Below, piece after piece: positions 892 to 23,013 of a DNA stretch of 33,477 nucleotides. Origin of the DNA: a virus. Its lineage: Duplodnaviria; Heunggongvirae; Uroviricota; Caudoviricetes. Both the position numbers and the translations under genes were made by a program. Each line of letters begins with the position of its first letter. The first letter of the stretch is position 1. Where the stretch lies: positions 1-33,477 of IMG/VR virus record IMGVR_UViG_3300029193_000102; one strand, 5' to 3'. The notes below the pieces were generated by a model that was not told the origin of the DNA, did no database searches, and saw only the letters and a program-made list of their open reading frames with translations.

Positions 892-981
892 GGAGAGATG
901 CCGGAGCGGCTGAACGGACCGGTCTCGAAAACCGGAGTGGGGGCAACTCCACCGGGGGTTCAAATCCCCCTCTCTCCGCCA
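892..981 (+). tRNA. serU: tRNA-Ser, anticodon CGA; prophage integration target
   Basis: 90-nt sequence GGAGAGATGCCGGAGCGGCTGAACGGACCGGTCTCGAAAACC...GGTTCAAATCCCCCTCTCTCCGCCA with long variable arm, T-loop GGTTCAAATCC and 3' CCA; anticodon loop CTCGAAA. Confidence 0.9.
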
Positions 982-5401: not shown

Positions 5402-5459
5402 AAAAAGGGCGGCAGAGCAGTCACGGAGTAAAACTGATACCGCCAAACGTCACCAGAAA
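5402..5459 (-). ncRNA. dicF: DicF small RNA (53 nt at 5407..5459) with 3' stem-loop and U-tract
   Basis: Minus-strand sequence TTTCTGGTGACGTTTGGCGGTATCAGTTTTACTCCGTGACTGCTCTGCCGCCC followed by TTTTT matches recalled DicF; lies upstream of dicB as in the Qin dicB operon. Confidence 0.7.
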
Positions 5460-13206: not shown

Positions 13207-13465
13207 ATACAGCGAACGCCATTGGTTTAGTTGGATATTTACTGTGCCGGACAAAAACGGTTTGCGGGGAAATCTTAGTTAAGTAGAATAACTGCGGGTG
13301 CTTGAGGCTATCTGTCTCAGGCATGAACACCAAAAGGCAGATAGAGAAAAGCCCCAGTTAACATTACGCGTCCGGCAAGACGCTTAACATTAATCTGAGG
13401 CTCAATCTATGAACGGCAAATCTAGGTTAGCCTCTTACGTGCCGAAAGGCAAGGAGAAGCAGGCT

Positions 13466-13621
13466 ATGAAGCAGCAAAAGGCGATGTTAGTCGCCCTGAT
13501 CGTCATCTGTATTACCGTCATTGTGACGGCACTGGTAACGAGGAAAGACCTCTGCGAGGTACGAATCCGAACCGGCCAGACGGAGGTCACTGTCTTCACA
13601 GCTTACGAACCTGAGGAGTAA
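13466..13621 (+). CDS. hok: Hok/Gef-family type I toxin (HokD/RelF-like)
   Basis: 51 aa MKQQKAMLVALIVICITVIVTALVTRKDLCEVRIRTGQTEVTVFTAYEPEE, near-identical to recalled HokD; AAGGAGAAG SD 7 nt upstream. Confidence 0.8.
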   Translation: MKQQKAMLVALIVICITVIVTALVTRKDLCEVRIRTGQTEVTVFTAYEPEE

Positions 13622-16486: not shown

Positions 16487-16804
16487 GTGGTAAATTGGCG
16501 GCTGGTGGGTGTGGTGGTTGTTGCTTTCCCGTTGCTGAAAAAGAAAACGCCAGACTGTTAGCCGGGTATCAGTTATCTGGAGAAATTTTTAAATACCTCA
16601 CAATTCAGGCGGTTGACTGTTGTCTGGTTTGCGGGGAGTTTGTTAAAAGAAACTGGCATGGTGAATCCCCCTGTGCGGAGGGGCAATCAGCAACTGGTGT
16701 TTTGTCACCGACCCTTATCCTTTCTGTGCGGGTTCAGGTGCTGATACTGAACTCACCGGGAGGCACCCGGCATCATGTGCATGATGATACAGATACGCGG
16801 CTTT

Positions 16805-16830
16805 AGCCCCTCTCCGGAGGGGCTTTCTTG
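16805..16830 (+). terminator. Rho-independent terminator (plus strand)
   Basis: AGCCCCTC-TCCG-GAGGGGCT followed by TTCTTG. Confidence 0.45.
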
Positions 16831-16835
16831 TGGGC

Positions 16836-16861
16836 AAAAAAAAGCCCGAGTGGGTTCGGGC
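16836..16861 (-). terminator. Rho-independent terminator (minus strand), convergent with the previous one
   Basis: A8 run then GCCCGA-GTGGGT-TCGGGC on the plus strand, i.e. hairpin plus U-tract on the minus strand. Confidence 0.4.
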
Positions 16862-17043
16862 AACAGCATGAGATATACATTTTTATAATCGAATGGATTT
16901 TAACCAGAATTCATAAGGCTGCGCAACTGCGCGGTCTTTTTCGAATTGCGGGCTGTCGTCTCTCTTCTGCCATTGTCCTGTAACTTCCGGACTTCAGCCT
17001 GCTCCTTATCTGACTCACAATATTATCCCGGCCGGGAGGATTC

Positions 17044-19385: not shown

Positions 19386-19631
19386 ATGTCAGAAATCACA
19401 TCCCTGGTCACTGCTGAGGCAGTGAAGGAAGTCCTGCGCTCTGAAGAAGTCCGGAGTGCACTGAAACAGAAACTCCGCCAGAACCTTGAGGCGCGTCTTG
19501 ATGCAGAAGTGGATGCCATTCTGGATGAGCTGCTGGGCGTACCAGCGGTTCCGGAGCCGGAAGGTATCGCGGGTGACGGGAGTGCTTCAGATGGCGGTGA
19601 ACCCACACCTGACAGCGACATGATGATGTAA
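19386..19631 (+). CDS. Hypothetical acidic protein, 81 aa
   Basis: ATG 19386 with GAGAAAA upstream; ORF track's longer version (19212) lacks an RBS. Confidence 0.45.
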
Positions 19632-19707
19632 GCCTGCGCAAGGGACCATCGGTGTGTGCCGGTGGTCTTTATATTGTTGTGAGCTTCCGGATAACGGGAG
19701 ACGGGGT

Positions 19708-19923
19708 ATGTACCAGATGGAAAAAATCACAACAGGTGTGTCATACACCACGTCAGCGGTGGGAACGGGCTACTGGTTCCTGCAGTTGCTGGACAGGGTT
19801 TCCCCGTCTCAGTGGGCGGCAATAGGCGTGCTGGGGAGTCTGCTGTTTGGGCTGCTGACGTACCTGACTAACCTGTATTTCAAAATCAGAGAGGACCGGC
19901 GTAAGGCGGCGCGGGGAGAGTAA
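19708..19923 (+). CDS. Holin with dual-start motif (MYQM)
   Basis: 71 aa; two Met codons at 19708 and 19717; TM segments; resembles recalled DLP12 EssD-type holins (..[40 protein letters not shown]). Confidence 0.8.
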
Positions 19924-19927
19924 AGCG

Positions 19928-20278
19928 ATGAAGAAAAAATACGAACTGGTTGTTAAAGGGATAAATAATTACCCGGATAAGATTACTGTTACTGTGGTAC
20001 TGGAAATTGGTGGGTATCCGTCACTGTTGTTGCCAGATGTGGCGATTAGTCTTGACCGTACTGAAGGTGCCACGCTGGAGTTTTACGAAGCTGAGGCGAA
20101 AAAGCAGGCGAAGCAGTTTTTCATGGATGTTGCTGCCGGGTTATGTGAAGGGAACGAACCGTTGCCGGAAAAGCGCCCCGTAATTTTAGAGGCGCAGAAT
20201 GTGTTGATAACCTACAAAGGAAAGCTACCGGGAAGAATTACTTGTTCTCTGAAGACTCCACCGGAATCACAACCTTAA
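19928..20278 (+). CDS. Hypothetical 116-aa protein inserted between holin and endolysin
   Basis: GGAGAG SD; no signal peptide or TM segment. Confidence 0.5.
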   Translation: MKKKYELVVKGINNYPDKITVTVVLEIGGYPSLLLPDVAISLDRTEGATLEFYEAEAKKQAKQFFMDVAAGLCEGNEPLPEKRPVILEAQNVLITYKGKLPGRITCSLKTPPESQP

Positions 20279-20341
20279 TTCACTGACCGGAACAGATAAA
20301 CCTGTCCGTGGGCAGAAACCGATAAATCCTGATAAATATCC

Positions 20342-20875
20342 ATGAACACCAAAATCAAATACGGCCTGTCGGCTGCCGTTCTGGCGCTGATTGCCGCTGG
20401 TGCGCCTGCGCCTGACATTCTCGACCAGTTTCTGGATGAAAAGGAAGGTAACCACACCACGGCATACCGTGATGGTGCGGGGATCTGGACCATCTGCCGT
20501 GGAGCCACCCGGGTGGATGGTAAGCCTGTTATTCCTGGCATGAAGCTGTCGAAGGAAAAATGCGACCGGGTTAACGCCATTGAGCGTGATAAGGCGCTGG
20601 CATGGGTGGAGAAAAACATCAGAGTGCCACTGACCGAACCCCAGAAAGCGGGGATCGCGTCATTCTGTCCGTACAACATTGGTCCCGGTAAGTGTTTCCC
20701 GTCGACGTTTTACAGACGAATTAATGCAGGTGATCGAAAAGGTGCCTGCGAAGCGATTCGCTGGTGGATTAAGGACGGTGGCAGAGACTGCCGTATTCGC
20801 TCAAATAACTGTTACGGTCAGGTATCCCGTCGTGACCAGGAGAGCGCGCTGGCGTGCTGGGGTATCGACAGATAA
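20342..20875 (+). CDS. Endolysin, lysozyme-type with N-terminal SAR (signal-anchor-release) domain
   Basis: 177 aa; N-terminal YGLSAAVLALIAAGA; catalytic E..D..T region EGNHTTAYRDGAGIWTICRGAT. Confidence 0.85.
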   Translation: MNTKIKYGLSAAVLALIAAGAPAPDILDQFLDEKEGNHTTAYRDGAGIWTICRGATRVDGKPVIPGMKLSKEKCDRVNAIERDKALAWVEKNIRVPLTEPQKAGIASFCPYNIGPGKCFPSTFYRRINAGDRKGACEAIRWWIKDGGRDCRIRSNNCYGQVSRRDQESALACWGIDR

Positions 20876-20967
20876 GCAGAATATTTTGCTGAAAAATAAG
20901 GCATGGCCACGCGGGCGGATAACACGAAATCCTGCGAACTGGCGAAACGTAAGTGAATAAAAGTAAA

Positions 20968-21005
20968 AACCCCGTTTGTTGGCACCAAGCGGGGTTTTGT
21001 GTTTC
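20968..21005 (+). terminator. Terminator-like hairpin plus T-tract after the endolysin gene
   Basis: AACCCCG...CGGGGTT stem followed by TTTTGTGTTTC. Confidence 0.4.
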
Positions 21006-21031
21006 TGACCTTGAGTAAGGCAAGGGAGAAC

Positions 21032-21214
21032 ATGGCGAAGTATAAACGAATTCTGTTGAGGTTGACTATGAAAAACGGCCTTGAACTGAAAGCGCCTGTA
21101 ACTGATGACATCAGCAGAGCACTGGCTTTTGCCATTAAGTGGGTGGCGGTCGGTGTTGCTGTGTCCCCGATGCTGTATGGGCTGGCAAAACTGGTCATTG
21201 CGTTGAAATCATGA
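21032..21214 (+). CDS. Hypothetical 60-aa protein with C-terminal hydrophobic helix
   Basis: ATG 21032 with AGGGAGAA upstream. Confidence 0.4.
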
Positions 21215-21228
21215 AGGGAGGATTAAGC

Positions 21229-21360
21229 ATGCCAGACAAACTCATAACGCTGGCGAAGATCCTCTGTGTAATTGTCGGCATTTCATTTTCACTAATGCTG
21301 GTTGCTCTTTTTCTTTCCATGGCCTGGATGATGTTGTCTTCGTCGGGGCTGCTGGGGTGA
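21229..21360 (+). CDS. Hypothetical 43-aa membrane peptide
   Basis: ATG 21229 with AAGGGAGGA 7 nt upstream; highly hydrophobic. Confidence 0.3.
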
Positions 21361-21830
21361 ACATAAACCGAATGCTTTCCGCGTTTATCGTTATTCTGCT
21401 GGTGGCCTGTGGTGCGCTGTGGATGGCAACAGACCATTACCGTGATAACGCGATTACCTACAAAGCGCAGCGCGATAACAAAGCCAGAGAACTGAAGCTG
21501 GCGAACGCAACCATTACTGATATGCAGGTGCGCCAGCGCGATGTTGCTGCGCTCGATGCAAAATACTCGAGGGAATTAGCCGATGCGAGAGCTGAAAATG
21601 AAACTCTTCGCGCTGATGTTGCCGCTGGTCGTAAGCGCCTGCGGATCAACGCCACCTGCCCCGGTACCGTGCGTGAAGCCACCGGCACCTCCGGCGTGGA
21701 TAATGCAACCGGCCCCCGACTGGCAGACACCGCTGAACGGGATTATTTCATCCTCAGAGAACGGTTGATGACAATGCAGAAGCAGGTGGAAGGGGCGCAG
21801 GAATATATCCGCACTCAGTGTATTAACTAG
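21357..21830 (+). CDS. Rz: Rz i-spanin
   Basis: Strong similarity to recalled lambda Rz ([25 protein letters not shown]...DVAALDAKY...[27 protein letters not shown]); alternative start ATG 21372. Confidence 0.8.
21583..21768 (+). CDS. Rz1: Rz1 o-spanin lipoprotein, embedded in Rz in the +1 frame
   Basis: MLPLVVSAC lipobox; Pro-rich [27 protein letters not shown] matches recalled lambda Rz1. Confidence 0.75.
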
Positions 21831-21853
21831 TATTTTTGTTATCCGGAGAATGC

Positions 21854-22078
21854 ATGAAGAAATTACTGGTAACCGTAAAGCCTCTTCAGGGAACAATTCT
21901 GTTCCGTATTTTGCAGCGTGGTCGTGTTCTTGTTGAAGGTTCGTTCAGTGGTAAATGTATGCAATTACACTCCCGGACCTTTCAGGTGAATGCCACGAAT
22001 GAAGAGCTAACCGTTGAGTGTACGATGAATACCGCTAAATGCCGCATGGTATCCGCTGCATTACAGCGAGTGTGTTGA
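21854..22078 (+). CDS. Hypothetical 74-aa protein
   Basis: ATG 21854 with GGAGAA upstream. Confidence 0.35.
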   Translation: MKKLLVTVKPLQGTILFRILQRGRVLVEGSFSGKCMQLHSRTFQVNATNEELTVECTMNTAKCRMVSAALQRVC

Positions 22079-22329
22079 GCGACCTTATTATCCATGCGCG
22101 GTATTGTCGCCGTATCCCCGCATTAACAGAGACCGCAGCCCGACCGGGATACTCCTCTGCGCGAGTGTGCGGGGATAATCAAAAACGATACACACCGGGG
22201 TTTACCGCGTTAACGGAGCGCGGCGTTGTCCCCTCATAGTCGCCTGTCCGGTGCGATGGTGGAAGAAACCGGACTACATTGAAAATGATAACCATTATCA
22301 TTTTTGCGGGTCCTCCTGGTGGGGTGGGC

Positions 22330-22365
22330 CTGAACACGGGGCGGGCGGCGCGGAAAAAGGCGCAT
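22330..22365. other. Putative cos site (cosN-like) of a lambda-type packaging system
   Basis: ACGGGGCGGGCGGCGCGG resembles the recalled lambda cohesive-end region (ACGGGGCGGCGACCTCGCGGG); ~185 bp upstream of the small terminase gene; downstream cgtcatcatcat and tgtttttaat resemble lambda cosB-region sequence. Confidence 0.4.
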
Positions 22366-22536
22366 TTTTGTGATTTTATCGTCATCATCATAATAATGGT
22401 AACTTATTGTTTTTAATGTGTTTAGCATTAAAAAGATGATGATTGCGGTTGATTTTTGTTCGACATCTTTATATGGCGGCATTTCTTTACAAAAAAAGAG
22501 CCACTTTTGTTCAGCGGTTTATGTGGAGGGATGTAA

Positions 22537-23013
22537 ATGGACGGCGAGCTGAAAAATATGAAGTTAAATATTAATCAACTGGCAGCCCTTTCAGGTCTGC
22601 ACCGGCAGACTGTTGCCGCCAGAATGGCGGATGTTCCTCTTGCACCAGGCAGTAATGAAAAGAAAAAACTGTATCTCCTGACGGATTTGATTATTTCGTT
22701 GCTGGAAAAACCACCGACTTCCGAAGATGAAGAGATGAACCCACATGATCGGAAGGCATGGTATCAGTCCGAGCGCGAGCGTCTTAAATTTCAGCATGAA
22801 ACTGTTCAGCTTGTGCCTGTCAGTGATGTCAGGCGGTCCTTTTCTGTCGTGGTGAAAGCGATAGTTCAGGTACTGGAAACCTGGCCTGACCGGCTGGAAA
22901 GGGACAGAGGTTGGACCGCATCACAACTGAATGAAGTACAGATTGTGGTTGATGAGATCCGCGACACACTGGAAAAGGCAGTCATTGACTGTTGTGATGA
23001 GGCCGATATGTGA
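22537..23013 (+). CDS. Terminase small subunit
   Basis: 158 aa; GGAGGGA SD; N-terminal HTH NINQLAALSGLHRQTVAARM; immediately upstream of the large terminase gene. Confidence 0.7.
   Translation: MDGELKNMKLNINQLAALSGLHRQTVAARMADVPLAPGSNEKKKLYLLTDLIISLLEKPPTSEDEEMNPHDRKAWYQSERERLKFQHETVQLVPVSDVRRSFSVVVKAIVQVLETWPDRLERDRGWTASQLNEVQIVVDEIRDTLEKAVIDCCDEADM

What the first reader, a model, noticed from the sequence alone, without database searches (positions are those of the whole stretch)
19928..21360. Extra ORFs interleaved in the lysis cassette
A 116-aa soluble ORF lies between holin and endolysin. After the endolysin gene there is a terminator-like hairpin (20968..21005), then a 60-aa ORF and a 43-aa hydrophobic peptide, each with a good SD, before Rz. 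The canonical holin-endolysin-spanin order is therefore interrupted twice. These could be lysis regulators, inhibitors or unrelated cargo.
Basis: seen in the sequence. Interest (0 to 1): 0.45.

Follow-up and report, generated by a model that had tools for sequence, protein, structure and literature searches.

The report
Known accessory genes in prophage lysis cassette
The extra reading frames are real, conserved genes (a YdfR-family protein and two tiny membrane peptides) sitting in two much-used cargo slots of E. coli lambdoid prophage lysis cassettes; they are common and already catalogued, but what they do has not been tested.

Summary
Holin (19708-19923) is followed by a 116-aa soluble ORF (19928-20278), a SAR-type endolysin (20342-20875), a terminator-like hairpin (20966-20998), a 60-aa ORF (21032-21214), a 43-aa ORF (21229-21360), then Rz/Rz1.

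None of it is new as sequence. The 116-aa protein is a YdfR/DUF1327 member, and E. coli K-12 Qin has essQ-ydfR-rrrQ in the same order. The small ORFs belong to PHROG 1115 and 4906 and are annotated "hypothetical protein" in RefSeq. Related DNA occurs in 32% (small ORFs) and 56% (ydfR) of 5,426 complete E. coli genomes.

All three evolve as coding sequence (dN/dS 0.09-0.48, no broken copies). Both junctions are mosaic cargo slots: among 79 loci with a ≥94% identical endolysin, the holin-endolysin gap ranges 4-1316 nt and the endolysin-Rz gap 26-1435 nt.

YdfR is most likely a late cytoplasmic RNase E/RNA-binding accessory protein, judged from the K-12 homologue. The hairpin-60aa(-43aa) module sits just after the endolysin in four unrelated cassette types and is translationally coupled to Rz. 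I read it as a dispensable inner-membrane modulator of lysis. That is inference; plain cargo is the main rival.

The parts
19708..19923 (+). Class II (phage 21 S-type) holin, 71 aa. Start motif MYQMEK: two Met residues with no Lys between them.
   Evidence: PF04971 E=9e-33; 79% identical to K-12 EssQ; N-terminal variants.
19928..20278 (+). 116-aa soluble YdfR/DUF1327-family protein in the holin-endolysin slot. It uses the SD inside the holin 3' end.
   Evidence: PF07041 E=1.8e-45 and phrog_406/2091/1085; 45% identical to K-12 YdfR over residues 1-78; dN/dS 0.45-0.48; AF2 model.
20279..20341 (+). Linker before the endolysin. It ends in GATAAATCCTGATAAATATCC and has no SD. The linker is conserved wherever the slot carries cargo.
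20342..20875 (+). Lysozyme-family endolysin, 177 aa, with a SAR-type N-terminus (MNTKIKYGLSAAVLALIAAGAPAP).
   Evidence: PF00959; 89% identical to K-12 RrrQ; R21-like SAR endolysins in Stx phages are described in PMC8136144.
20876..20965 (+). Conserved endolysin 3' UTR containing hairpin 1 (20915-20935: GCGGAT-AACACGAA-ATCC(T)GC).
   Evidence: Alignment of 43 unique variants plus Salmonella; fold.
20966..20998 (.). Intrinsic-terminator-like hairpin flanked by an A-run and a T-run, so terminator-shaped on both strands. It is the 5' element of the small-ORF module.
   Evidence: present in 66 of 79 loci; stem covariation across contexts.
21032..21214 (+). 60-aa protein (family A, phrog_1115): a basic cytoplasmic N-terminus, a conserved MKNG-LE-(K/D)AP-T-D/E-I...AFAIK motif, and a C-terminal transmembrane segment. 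Second in-frame start at 21068.
   Evidence: dN/dS 0.18 over the whole ORF and 0.09 over residues 23-60.
21229..21360 (+). 43-aa hydrophobic peptide (family B, phrog_4906): N-terminus [10 protein letters not shown] followed by about 30 hydrophobic residues. Alternative start at 21211 overlaps the 60-aa stop codon.
   Evidence: dN/dS 0.47.
21357..21830 (+). Rz i-spanin. A GTG start overlaps the 43-aa stop codon; RefSeq homologues are called from the ATG at 21372. Rz1 o-spanin is embedded at 21598-21768.
   Evidence: PF03245 and PF06085; sequence reading.
21039..21068 (-). Promoter-like element TAGTCA-18-TATACT pointing towards the hairpin. This is a lead only: it could give a roughly 75-nt antisense RNA over the 60-aa SD and start codon.
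   Evidence: same site in L102; analogous TTGGCC-16-TATACT in L097; absent in L099.

Best explanation
The lysis cassette of this lambdoid prophage carries accessory genes in two mosaic cargo slots of the Q-dependent late operon.

Slot 1 (holin-endolysin) holds a short allele of YdfR. It is a soluble cytoplasmic protein, translated from the SD that the endolysin uses when the slot is empty. By homology with K-12 YdfR it probably binds the catalytic half of RNase E and/or RNA late in infection. It is not part of the envelope-disruption machinery.

Slot 2 (endolysin-Rz) holds a mobile module: a terminator-like hairpin, a 60-aa gene and a 43-aa gene. Because the hairpin precedes them and no plus-strand promoter follows it, the two genes should be made only from antiterminated late transcripts. 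They are translated in a coupled chain (60 aa stop/ATG overlap, 43 aa stop/GTG overlap) that runs into Rz. Both products are predicted N-in single-pass inner-membrane peptides. I infer that they tune lysis at the inner membrane (timing or efficiency) without being required for it.

Shown here: the ORFs and hairpin exist; family membership; coding conservation; slot variability; the module's position in four cassette types; the overlapping stop and start codons.

Inferred: late-only expression, membrane topology, RNase E binding by this allele, and any effect on lysis.
For: - Identity.
- K-12 precedent essQ-ydfR-rrrQ.
- K-12 YdfR binds RNase E residues 1-597 in two-hybrid and co-purification assays. 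Its residues 1-72 suffice, and RNA co-purifies with it (PMC13232886).
- Slot variability among 79 loci with a ≥94% identical endolysin: holin-endolysin gap 4-1316 nt (24 length classes), endolysin-Rz gap 26-1435 nt (14 classes).
- 78 of 79 loci carry at least one small transmembrane peptide of three families (A, B, C) before Rz.
- Coding conservation.
- The family A (60-aa) gene with its hairpin, with or without a family B (43-aa) gene, follows the endolysin in four unrelated cassettes: (i) S21 holin + R21-like SAR lysozyme (this window); (ii) PF16080 holin + a SAR lysozyme only 35% identical; (iii) PF05106 class I holin + GH19 endolysin; (iv) Phage_holin_8/3_7 + GH108 endolysin.
- The hairpin travels with the module and covaries.
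- No plus-strand promoter is predicted between hairpin and Rz.
- Precedents for small membrane-tethered lysis co-factors: Mu gp25 (PMC9239132) and LambdaSo Lcc6.
Against: - No experiment exists on the 60-aa or 43-aa proteins.
- Cassettes with none of these genes exist: lambda, Qin for slot 2, L060. So none of them is needed for lysis.
- Family A also occurs outside lysis cassettes, after tail-fibre genes and after a nanS-like esterase.
- The 43-aa ORF is under only weak purifying selection (dN/dS 0.47).
- The window's YdfR is only 45% identical to the tested K-12 protein. Overproducing K-12 YdfR hardly changed the transcriptome or growth.
- The fold searches gave no significant match.
Confidence: 0.42

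Rival explanations
1. Pure cargo. All three genes are selfish or host-directed passengers (for example superinfection exclusion, membrane stress tolerance, or anti-defence). They sit in the lysis cassette only because its gene junctions tolerate insertions and provide late expression. They have no effect on lysis.
For: - Both junctions hold many unrelated inserts: ant, a DNA methyltransferase, reverse-strand genes, a 185-aa protein, and YdfR fused to other domains.
- Presence and absence vary among near-identical cassettes.
- Family A is also found after tail-fibre genes, flanked by terminators like a classical moron, and after a nanS-like gene.
- The families are narrow and young: 23 clusters at 50% identity among 1.84 billion representatives for family A; YdfR is found only in Escherichia/Shigella.
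Against: - No plus-strand promoter is predicted for the small ORFs, and a terminator precedes them, so expression in the lysogen looks unlikely.
- The same position, directly after the endolysin, recurs in four unrelated cassettes.
- Translational coupling into Rz.
- No match to known defence-system models.
Confidence: 0.3
2. The 60-aa gene is a type I toxin-like or P22 ant/sar-like unit. A small antisense RNA starts at a minus-strand promoter inside the first codons (21068..21039), covers the SD and start codon, and ends at the bidirectional hairpin. This would keep a membrane-active peptide silent until late transcription swamps it.
For: - The hairpin is terminator-shaped on both strands and has the better T-tract on the minus strand.
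- A promoter-like site lies at the homologous position in the window, in L102 and, with a different -35, in L097.
- The -10 box persists across contexts, and a Lys-to-Asn variant turns it into TATAAT.
- Codons 3-18 are identical between E. coli and Salmonella, while 12 of the 32 later codons that keep the same amino acid differ synonymously.
- Some variants have an 8-codon leader ORF coupled to the start codon.
Against: - The promoter matches are only 9 of 12, and about as many are expected by chance. None was found in L099.
- The -10 box lies in conserved Lys-Tyr codons.
- The conserved nucleotides also contain an SD (GAGG or GGAGG) and an internal ATG that would explain the conservation.
- No Rfam family matches.
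- No RNA data are available, and toxicity is untested.
Confidence: 0.12
3. YdfR is itself a lysis regulator, for example a cytoplasmic partner of the holin C-terminal tail or of the SAR endolysin N-terminus, analogous in logic to T4 RIII.
For: - Its fixed position between holin and endolysin, in K-12 as well.
- It takes over the SD that otherwise serves the endolysin, leaving the endolysin without an SD, which must change the endolysin:holin ratio.
- A Keio ydfR mutant was scored in an envelope-integrity screen, as cited in PMC13232886.
Against: - The slot is empty, or filled by unrelated proteins and reverse-strand genes, in cassettes with the same holin and endolysin.
- The only direct data point to RNase E and RNA.
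- ydfR is not mentioned in the main text of the screen paper, and a polar effect on rrrQ could explain that phenotype (my inference).
Confidence: 0.08
4. The small ORFs are not genes. They stay open by chance, or because the DNA serves as SD or linker sequence for Rz.
For: They are very short. The 3' end of the 43-aa ORF supplies the G-rich stretch before the Rz start codon. Most database copies carry no name.
Against: - dN/dS is 0.18 over the whole 60-aa ORF and 0.09 over residues 23-60, against 1.0-2.4 in the shifted frames. There were no stop codons in 9 unique variants of the 60-aa ORF or 15 of the 43-aa ORF.
- A conserved cytoplasmic motif is shared with homologues that HMMER alone can detect.
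- Strong SDs are present.
- The genes keep their integrity while moving between unrelated contexts.
Confidence: 0.03

Closest known systems
E. coli K-12 Qin prophage essQ-ydfR-rrrQ-rzpQ/rzoQ
   Same: Same holin family (79% identical), same endolysin (89%), and a DUF1327 protein in the same slot.
   Different: K-12 YdfR is 103 aa with a different, helical C-terminus and is only 45% identical in the N-domain. Its stop codon overlaps rrrQ. Qin has nothing between rrrQ and rzpQ.
Stx-converting phages (933W type): S-R-ant-Rz
   Same: Same cassette family. A family B peptide homologous to the 43-aa ORF (63-79% identical) sits just before Rz in most of the 276 phage records that carry it, and is often unannotated there.
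   Different: Those phages carry the antirepressor gene ant and a different terminator-like hairpin in place of the 60-aa gene.
Phage Mu gp25 releasin (DUF2730)
   Same: A small membrane-tethered, mostly cytoplasmic protein encoded beside a SAR endolysin. Its family also occurs with cytoplasmic endolysins.
   Different: No DUF2730 match. gp25 has an N-terminal transmembrane segment and is required for lysis. The 60-aa protein has a C-terminal transmembrane segment and is dispensable, judged by its absence from sister cassettes.
Shewanella LambdaSo Lcc6
   Same: A 65-aa single-pass protein acting with a pinholin/SAR endolysin system.
   Different: Lcc6 is encoded far from the cassette, has an N-terminal transmembrane segment and is strictly required. 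Sequence similarity could not be tested because I did not have its sequence.
Phage P22 sar RNA / ant, and type I toxin-antitoxin loci such as hok/sok
   Same: Architecture only: a possible antisense promoter in the first codons, aimed at the SD and ending at a terminator, with a small hydrophobic product. The P22 comparison rests on my own knowledge of the literature.
   Different: No RNA evidence, no Rfam match, and no demonstrated toxicity.
Lambda morons (bor, lom)
   Same: Accessory genes inserted at gene junctions of the late region, with terminators at their borders (lambda S-R-Rz-bor layout).
   Different: Classical morons have their own promoter and are expressed from the prophage. No such promoter is seen here.

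Membership tests
YdfR / DUF1327 (PF07041) | Match to the Pfam model above its gathering score | tested here: met
   153.5 bits against a cut-off of 25, E=1.8e-45, residues 1-112.
YdfR / DUF1327 (PF07041) | Location between a class II holin and the endolysin of a lambdoid prophage, as for K-12 ydfR | tested here: met
   RefSeq annotation of homologous loci.
YdfR / DUF1327 (PF07041) | Binding to the RNase E N-terminal half and co-purification of RNA (shown for K-12 YdfR only) | not testable with these tools
   PMC13232886. The window allele is 45% identical over the interacting residues 1-72.
Releasin (Mu gp25, DUF2730) | Match to DUF2730 | tested here: not met
   No Pfam family at E ≤ 0.1 for the 60-aa or 43-aa proteins.
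Releasin (Mu gp25, DUF2730) | N-terminal transmembrane domain followed by a cytoplasmic domain | tested here: not met
   The hydrophobic segment of the 60-aa protein spans roughly residues 30-58, after a basic N-terminus. The 43-aa peptide has no soluble domain.
Releasin (Mu gp25, DUF2730) | Required for release of a SAR endolysin | not testable with these tools
   Indirect only: sister cassettes with the same endolysin lack the genes.
Holin / antiholin families | Match to any Pfam or PHROG holin model, or similarity to lambda S | tested here: not met
   (both PHROG families are "unknown function"). BLASTP against lambda S gave no alignment for the 43-aa peptide and E=2.3 for the 60-aa protein.
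Intrinsic (rho-independent) terminator | G+C-rich stem-loop followed by a T-tract | tested here: met
   20966-20998, 13 pairs, then TTTTGTGTTT; -18.9 kcal/mol.
Intrinsic (rho-independent) terminator | Structure conserved through compensatory change | tested here: met
   The inner stem reads GTTTG/CAAGC, GAACG/CGATC, GATTG/CAGTC or GGCTG/CAG(T)CC in different contexts, and all variants fold at -12 to -24 kcal/mol.
Intrinsic (rho-independent) terminator | Stops RNA polymerase that is not modified by Q | not testable with these tools
   Needs Term-seq or an in vitro transcription assay.
Type I toxin-antitoxin / cis-antisense control | Antisense RNA gene overlapping the toxin SD | tested here: inconclusive
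   Promoter-like sites in the window, L102 and L097 but not L099, at about the chance rate. No Rfam hit.
Type I toxin-antitoxin / cis-antisense control | Small hydrophobic protein that is toxic when expressed | not testable with these tools
   Only the size and hydrophobicity are shown.
Moron (own promoter, gene, terminator; expressed from the prophage) | Plus-strand sigma-70 promoter upstream of the gene | tested here: not met
   No plus-strand promoter-like site between 19600 and 22300. This was a consensus scan only.
Known anti-phage defence systems (PADLOC) | Match to a PADLOC model | tested here: not met
   No match for the three window proteins or for five other proteins tested: four alternative slot cargos and the window's 74-aa ORF.

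The most novel reading that the evidence does not exclude
The hairpin-60aa-43aa module, together with the alternative family C peptide, is a previously unrecognised class of inner-membrane lysis accessory factor. It moves as a unit between unrelated holin-endolysin cassettes. It is gated by its own terminator (and possibly an antisense RNA). It makes long and short isoforms from paired in-frame starts (21032/21068 and 21211/21229), much as holins make holin/antiholin pairs. In Stx phages, where the 43-aa family is nearly universal, it would help set the time of lysis and so of toxin release.
Probability: 0.2. Interest if true: 0.6.

Novelty: already known. Interest (0 to 1): 0.3.

Why it matters
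As found, it matters little. The genes are catalogued, common and annotated, and the gene order is in the K-12 reference genome.

The useful output is a sharper, testable picture.

- The two junctions of the S21/R21-type cassette are cargo slots bounded by conserved linkers.
- Almost every cassette of this type carries at least one of three small transmembrane peptide families before Rz.
- One of these families travels with its own terminator hairpin into at least four unrelated lysis cassettes.

If these peptides do tune lysis, they would join Mu releasin and LambdaSo Lcc6 as evidence that holin-endolysin-spanin is not the full parts list. They would also be relevant to the timing of Shiga-toxin release. 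If YdfR really acts on RNase E, it would be a lambdoid counterpart of T7 gp0.7, T4 Srd and phiKZ Dip (those three comparisons come from my own knowledge).

Tried and rejected
- Rfam, at gathering scores on the whole window and at E ≤ 10 on 19600-22600: no family at the hairpin or the endolysin 3' UTR, only a sub-threshold rimP-leader match caused by the terminator shape.
- Defence systems and curated families: PADLOC and NCBIfam gave nothing for the three extra ORFs.
- Similarity of the small peptides to lambda S: none.
- Literature: no paper contains the peptide or hairpin sequences. A search for DUF1327 found one genomics paper only. The Stx-phage lysis-cassette survey does not mention the small ORFs. 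ydfR is absent from the main text of the envelope screen paper.
- Species-representative genomes: the family A pattern found nothing. YdfR was found only in Escherichia/Shigella, plus two metagenome bins labelled Veillonella and Bacillota, which I take to be contamination.
- "SAR endolysin-specific co-factor" for the 60-aa family: rejected, because the family also follows GH19 and GH108 endolysins.
- The 64-aa paralogue from L099 as a query against viral contigs: no relatives.
Full report
**Observation**

The window is a lambdoid prophage. It carries a tRNA, DicF, a sok-like RNA, the STnc100 late leader, AsxR and a nanS-like esterase. Its lysis region reads as follows:

- holin, 19708-19923
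- 116-aa ORF, 19928-20278
- endolysin, 20342-20875
- hairpin, 20966-20998
- 60-aa ORF, 21032-21214
- 43-aa ORF, 21229-21360
- Rz, from GTG 21357 or ATG 21372 to 21830, with Rz1 embedded at 21598-21768

Every ORF has an SD at a workable distance. The 60-aa stop codon overlaps an upstream ATG of the 43-aa frame (ATGA at 21211). The 43-aa stop codon overlaps a GTG (GTGA at 21357). That GTG restores an Asn-Arg N-terminus before the Rz transmembrane segment, like other Rz alleles, so I take it as the Rz start (inference).

**Identity**

- The holin is a phage 21 S-type class II holin (PF04971).
- The endolysin is a lysozyme with a SAR-type N-terminus.
- The 116-aa protein is a DUF1327/YdfR-family member (E=1.8e-45).
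- The 60-aa and 43-aa proteins have no Pfam family. They match PHROG 1115 and PHROG 4906, both of unknown function.

E. coli K-12 has essQ-ydfR-rrrQ-rzpQ in its Qin prophage. Identities to the window are 79% for the holin and 89% for the endolysin. For YdfR the identity is only 45%, over residues 1-78. RefSeq annotates the same six-gene order in many genomes as [quoted passage not shown], and so do cultured phages such as PhiR12_1.

Prevalence among 5,426 complete E. coli genomes:

| Query DNA | Any match | Full length |
|---|---|---|
| 60-aa + 43-aa pair | 1,739 | 1,038 |
| YdfR-like gene | 3,019 | 1,258 |

The 43-aa family is present in 276 phage records, mostly Stx phages, and is often unannotated there. 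Both small families carry only "hypothetical protein" labels.

**Are they genes?**

I used 80 IMG/VR loci chosen only for a ≥94% identical endolysin, four annotated loci and the window. dN/dS in the annotated frame was:

| ORF | dN/dS in frame | dN/dS in shifted frames |
|---|---|---|
| 60-aa, whole ORF | 0.18 | 1.0-1.6 |
| 60-aa, residues 23-60 | 0.09 | 1.4-2.4 |
| 43-aa | 0.47 | 0.8-1.2 |
| YdfR | 0.45-0.48 | 0.7-0.9 |
| holin | 0.09 | |
| endolysin | 0.08 | |
| Rz | 0.37 | |

No unique variant of either small ORF contains a stop codon. The 60-aa ORF is under strong constraint; the other two are under relaxed or diversifying constraint.

**The two junctions are cargo slots**

Among loci that share this endolysin, the holin-endolysin gap takes 24 lengths from 4 to 1316 nt, and the endolysin-Rz gap takes 14 lengths from 26 to 1435 nt.

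The holin-endolysin slot can hold:

- nothing
- a short YdfR of 110-116 aa
- YdfR-N fused to other domains, giving proteins of 162-329 aa
- an unrelated 185-aa protein
- reverse-strand genes of 90-210 aa

None of these has a Pfam or PADLOC match apart from DUF1327. Whenever cargo is present, the endolysin is preceded by a conserved SD-less linker, GATAAATCCTGATAAATATCC. When the slot is empty, the endolysin sits 4 nt after the holin and uses the SD in the holin's 3' end. In the window that SD serves YdfR instead.

The endolysin-Rz slot holds combinations of three small single-pass peptide families, plus ant or a DNA methyltransferase:

- Family A, the 60-aa type
- Family B, the 43-aa type
- Family C, 44-45 aa, with the motif (F/L)DFSKLIRE...WKF

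| Architecture | Loci |
|---|---|
| none | 1 |
| C | 18 |
| A | 3 |
| C-B | 1 |
| A-B | 21 |
| C-B-A-A | 22 |
| ant-B | 12 |
| A-B-methyltransferase | 1 |

So 78 of 79 loci carry at least one small peptide. Lambda itself has overlapping S/R and R/Rz genes and no cargo.

**The hairpin belongs to the small-ORF module**

About 85 nt after the endolysin stop codon are conserved. They include a small hairpin (20915-20935) and the terminator-like hairpin, which is present in 66 of 79 loci. The ant-type loci carry a different terminator-like hairpin at the same place.

In Salmonella the same two hairpins, followed by an 8-codon leader ORF and a family A gene, come after quite different endolysins. 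Across 62 unique upstream sequences the flanks differ completely. Yet an A-run/GC-stem/T-run hairpin always lies 15-35 nt (up to about 60 nt where the leader ORF intervenes) before the family A start codon, and the inner stem covaries. All variants fold at -12 to -24 kcal/mol. No Rfam family matches.

Because it is T-flanked on both strands, the hairpin could terminate transcription from either direction.

**Where family A lives**

Besides this cassette type, the family A gene and its hairpin, with or without a family B gene, directly follow the endolysin in three other cassettes:

- PF16080 holin plus a SAR lysozyme only 35% identical to the window's
- PF05106 class I holin plus a GH19 endolysin
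- Phage_holin_8/Phage_holin_3_7 plus a GH108 endolysin. Here A and B are followed by a 60-aa lipoprotein and no recognisable Rz. This type was seen in more than 40 viral contigs.

The association is therefore with "just after the endolysin", not with SAR endolysins.

There are exceptions. One variant lies after tail-fibre genes, flanked by terminators. Tandem paralogues lie after a nanS-like esterase.

The family is tiny: 23 clusters at 50% identity among 1.84 billion representative proteins. It shares a cytoplasmic motif, MKNG-LE-DAP-T-EI...A-AFAI(K/R), ahead of the transmembrane segment. Many members start at this internal Met. In the window it is ATG 21068, behind GAGG at a 6-nt spacing. 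This SD-plus-ATG arrangement is kept in nearly all variants, even where the N-terminal extension differs. Long and short isoforms are therefore possible. The 43-aa frame likewise has two possible starts.

**Mechanism (inferred)**

YdfR. The K-12 protein binds RNase E residues 1-597 in two-hybrid and co-purification assays. Its residues 1-72 suffice, and RNA co-purifies with it. Overproduction has little effect (PMC13232886). My model of the window allele has a confident beta-beta-beta-alpha N-domain and an uncertain C-terminal hairpin, with no significant structural neighbour. The slot is otherwise filled with unrelated cargo. On that basis I rate YdfR as a late cytoplasmic RNA-metabolism accessory protein rather than a lysis protein.

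Small peptides. Four things point to strictly late expression together with the spanin and to action in the inner membrane:

- a terminator ahead of them
- no plus-strand promoter
- translational coupling into Rz
- predicted N-in single-pass topology

Their recurrent position after unrelated endolysins argues for a role in lysis. Mu gp25 and LambdaSo Lcc6 are precedents for small membrane proteins in lysis. Their absence from sister cassettes shows that the role is dispensable. They fail the membership tests for releasin (no DUF2730 match, opposite topology) and for holins.

**Rivals**

- Plain cargo is nearly as likely. It is supported by the slot diversity and by the copies outside lysis cassettes.
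- A cis-antisense, type I toxin-like arrangement is suggested by a minus-strand promoter-like site at the homologous position in three contexts. It is also suggested by 48 nucleotides of the 5' coding sequence that are identical between the E. coli and Salmonella copies. However, the promoter matches occur at about the chance rate, one context lacks the site, and the internal SD and start codon explain the conservation equally well.
- Spurious ORFs are excluded for the 60-aa gene and unlikely for the 43-aa gene.

**Verdict**

The finding is a correct reading of an ordinary, already annotated arrangement. Its parts belong to known but uncharacterised families, and nothing here defines a new kind of system. 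The most novel reading still open is that the hairpin-A-B module is a mobile, terminator-gated, dual-start inner-membrane lysis modulator. It is testable with simple phage genetics, and I give it about one chance in five.

Noticed in passing
window 19708-19719: The holin starts MYQMEK, with two Met codons three residues apart like the phage 21 and Qin dual-start motif (MKSMDK), but with no Lys between them. Other alleles read MNQMEK or have only the second Met. The charge-based antiholin form may therefore be missing in this holin clade.
   Followed up: partly
window 20279-20341: The endolysin start codon has no SD. It is preceded by a linker, GATAAATCCTGATAAATATCC, conserved in every locus whose holin-endolysin slot carries cargo. 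In empty slots the endolysin sits 4 nt after the holin and uses the SD that YdfR uses here.
   Followed up: partly
window 20915-20935: A small conserved hairpin (GCGGAT-AACACGAA-ATCC(T)GC) lies in the endolysin 3' UTR. Its loop sequence is kept in Salmonella modules that follow unrelated endolysins, and just upstream is a hypervariable patch (about 20897-20912). No Rfam match. It could be part of a 3'UTR-derived small RNA or a recombination linker.
   Followed up: partly
window 21058-21070 and 21211-21231: Both small ORFs have paired in-frame start codons, each with its own SD: 21032/21068 for the 60-aa ORF and 21211/21229 for the 43-aa ORF. Many homologues of the 60-aa protein consist only of the short form, starting MKNG.
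   Followed up: partly
window 21854-22078: A 74-aa ORF after Rz (phrog_2571, annotated hypothetical in RefSeq) shows no clear coding signal: dN/dS is 0.65 in frame against 0.45-0.58 in the shifted frames.
   Followed up: partly
L008, L020, L033, L047, L070 and others (holin-endolysin slot): The YdfR N-domain occurs fused to several different C-terminal domains, giving proteins of up to 329 aa. One of those domains also exists as the C-terminal part of a stand-alone 185-aa protein in the same slot. Reverse-strand genes of 90-210 aa with no family match share the slot.
   Followed up: partly
L204 1440-2040 (and about 40 similar viral contigs): In a cassette with Phage_holin_8, Phage_holin_3_7 and a GH108 endolysin, the hairpin-60aa-43aa module is followed by a 60-aa lipoprotein (phrog_7528). 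No Rz-like gene was found within 1.5 kb.
   Followed up: partly
L085 3225-3314: In Salmonella a 29-aa hydrophobic ORF (MICFVAAFMLACDGRSGWGWFLLVGLIVM) starts on the stop codon of the SAR lysozyme (ATGA), ahead of the hairpins and the 60-aa homologue.
   Followed up: no
window 892-978, 5407-5458, 13296-13471, 16627-16891: Known RNA genes elsewhere in the prophage: a tRNA at the left end, DicF, a sok-like antitoxin RNA (implying a hok-type toxin), the STnc100 late-leader RNA, and AsxR on the opposite strand right after it.
   Followed up: no
L093, L095: YdfR-bearing contigs are labelled as Veillonella parvula and Bacillota metagenome bins. They look like Escherichia prophage DNA mis-binned into those genomes.
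   Followed up: no
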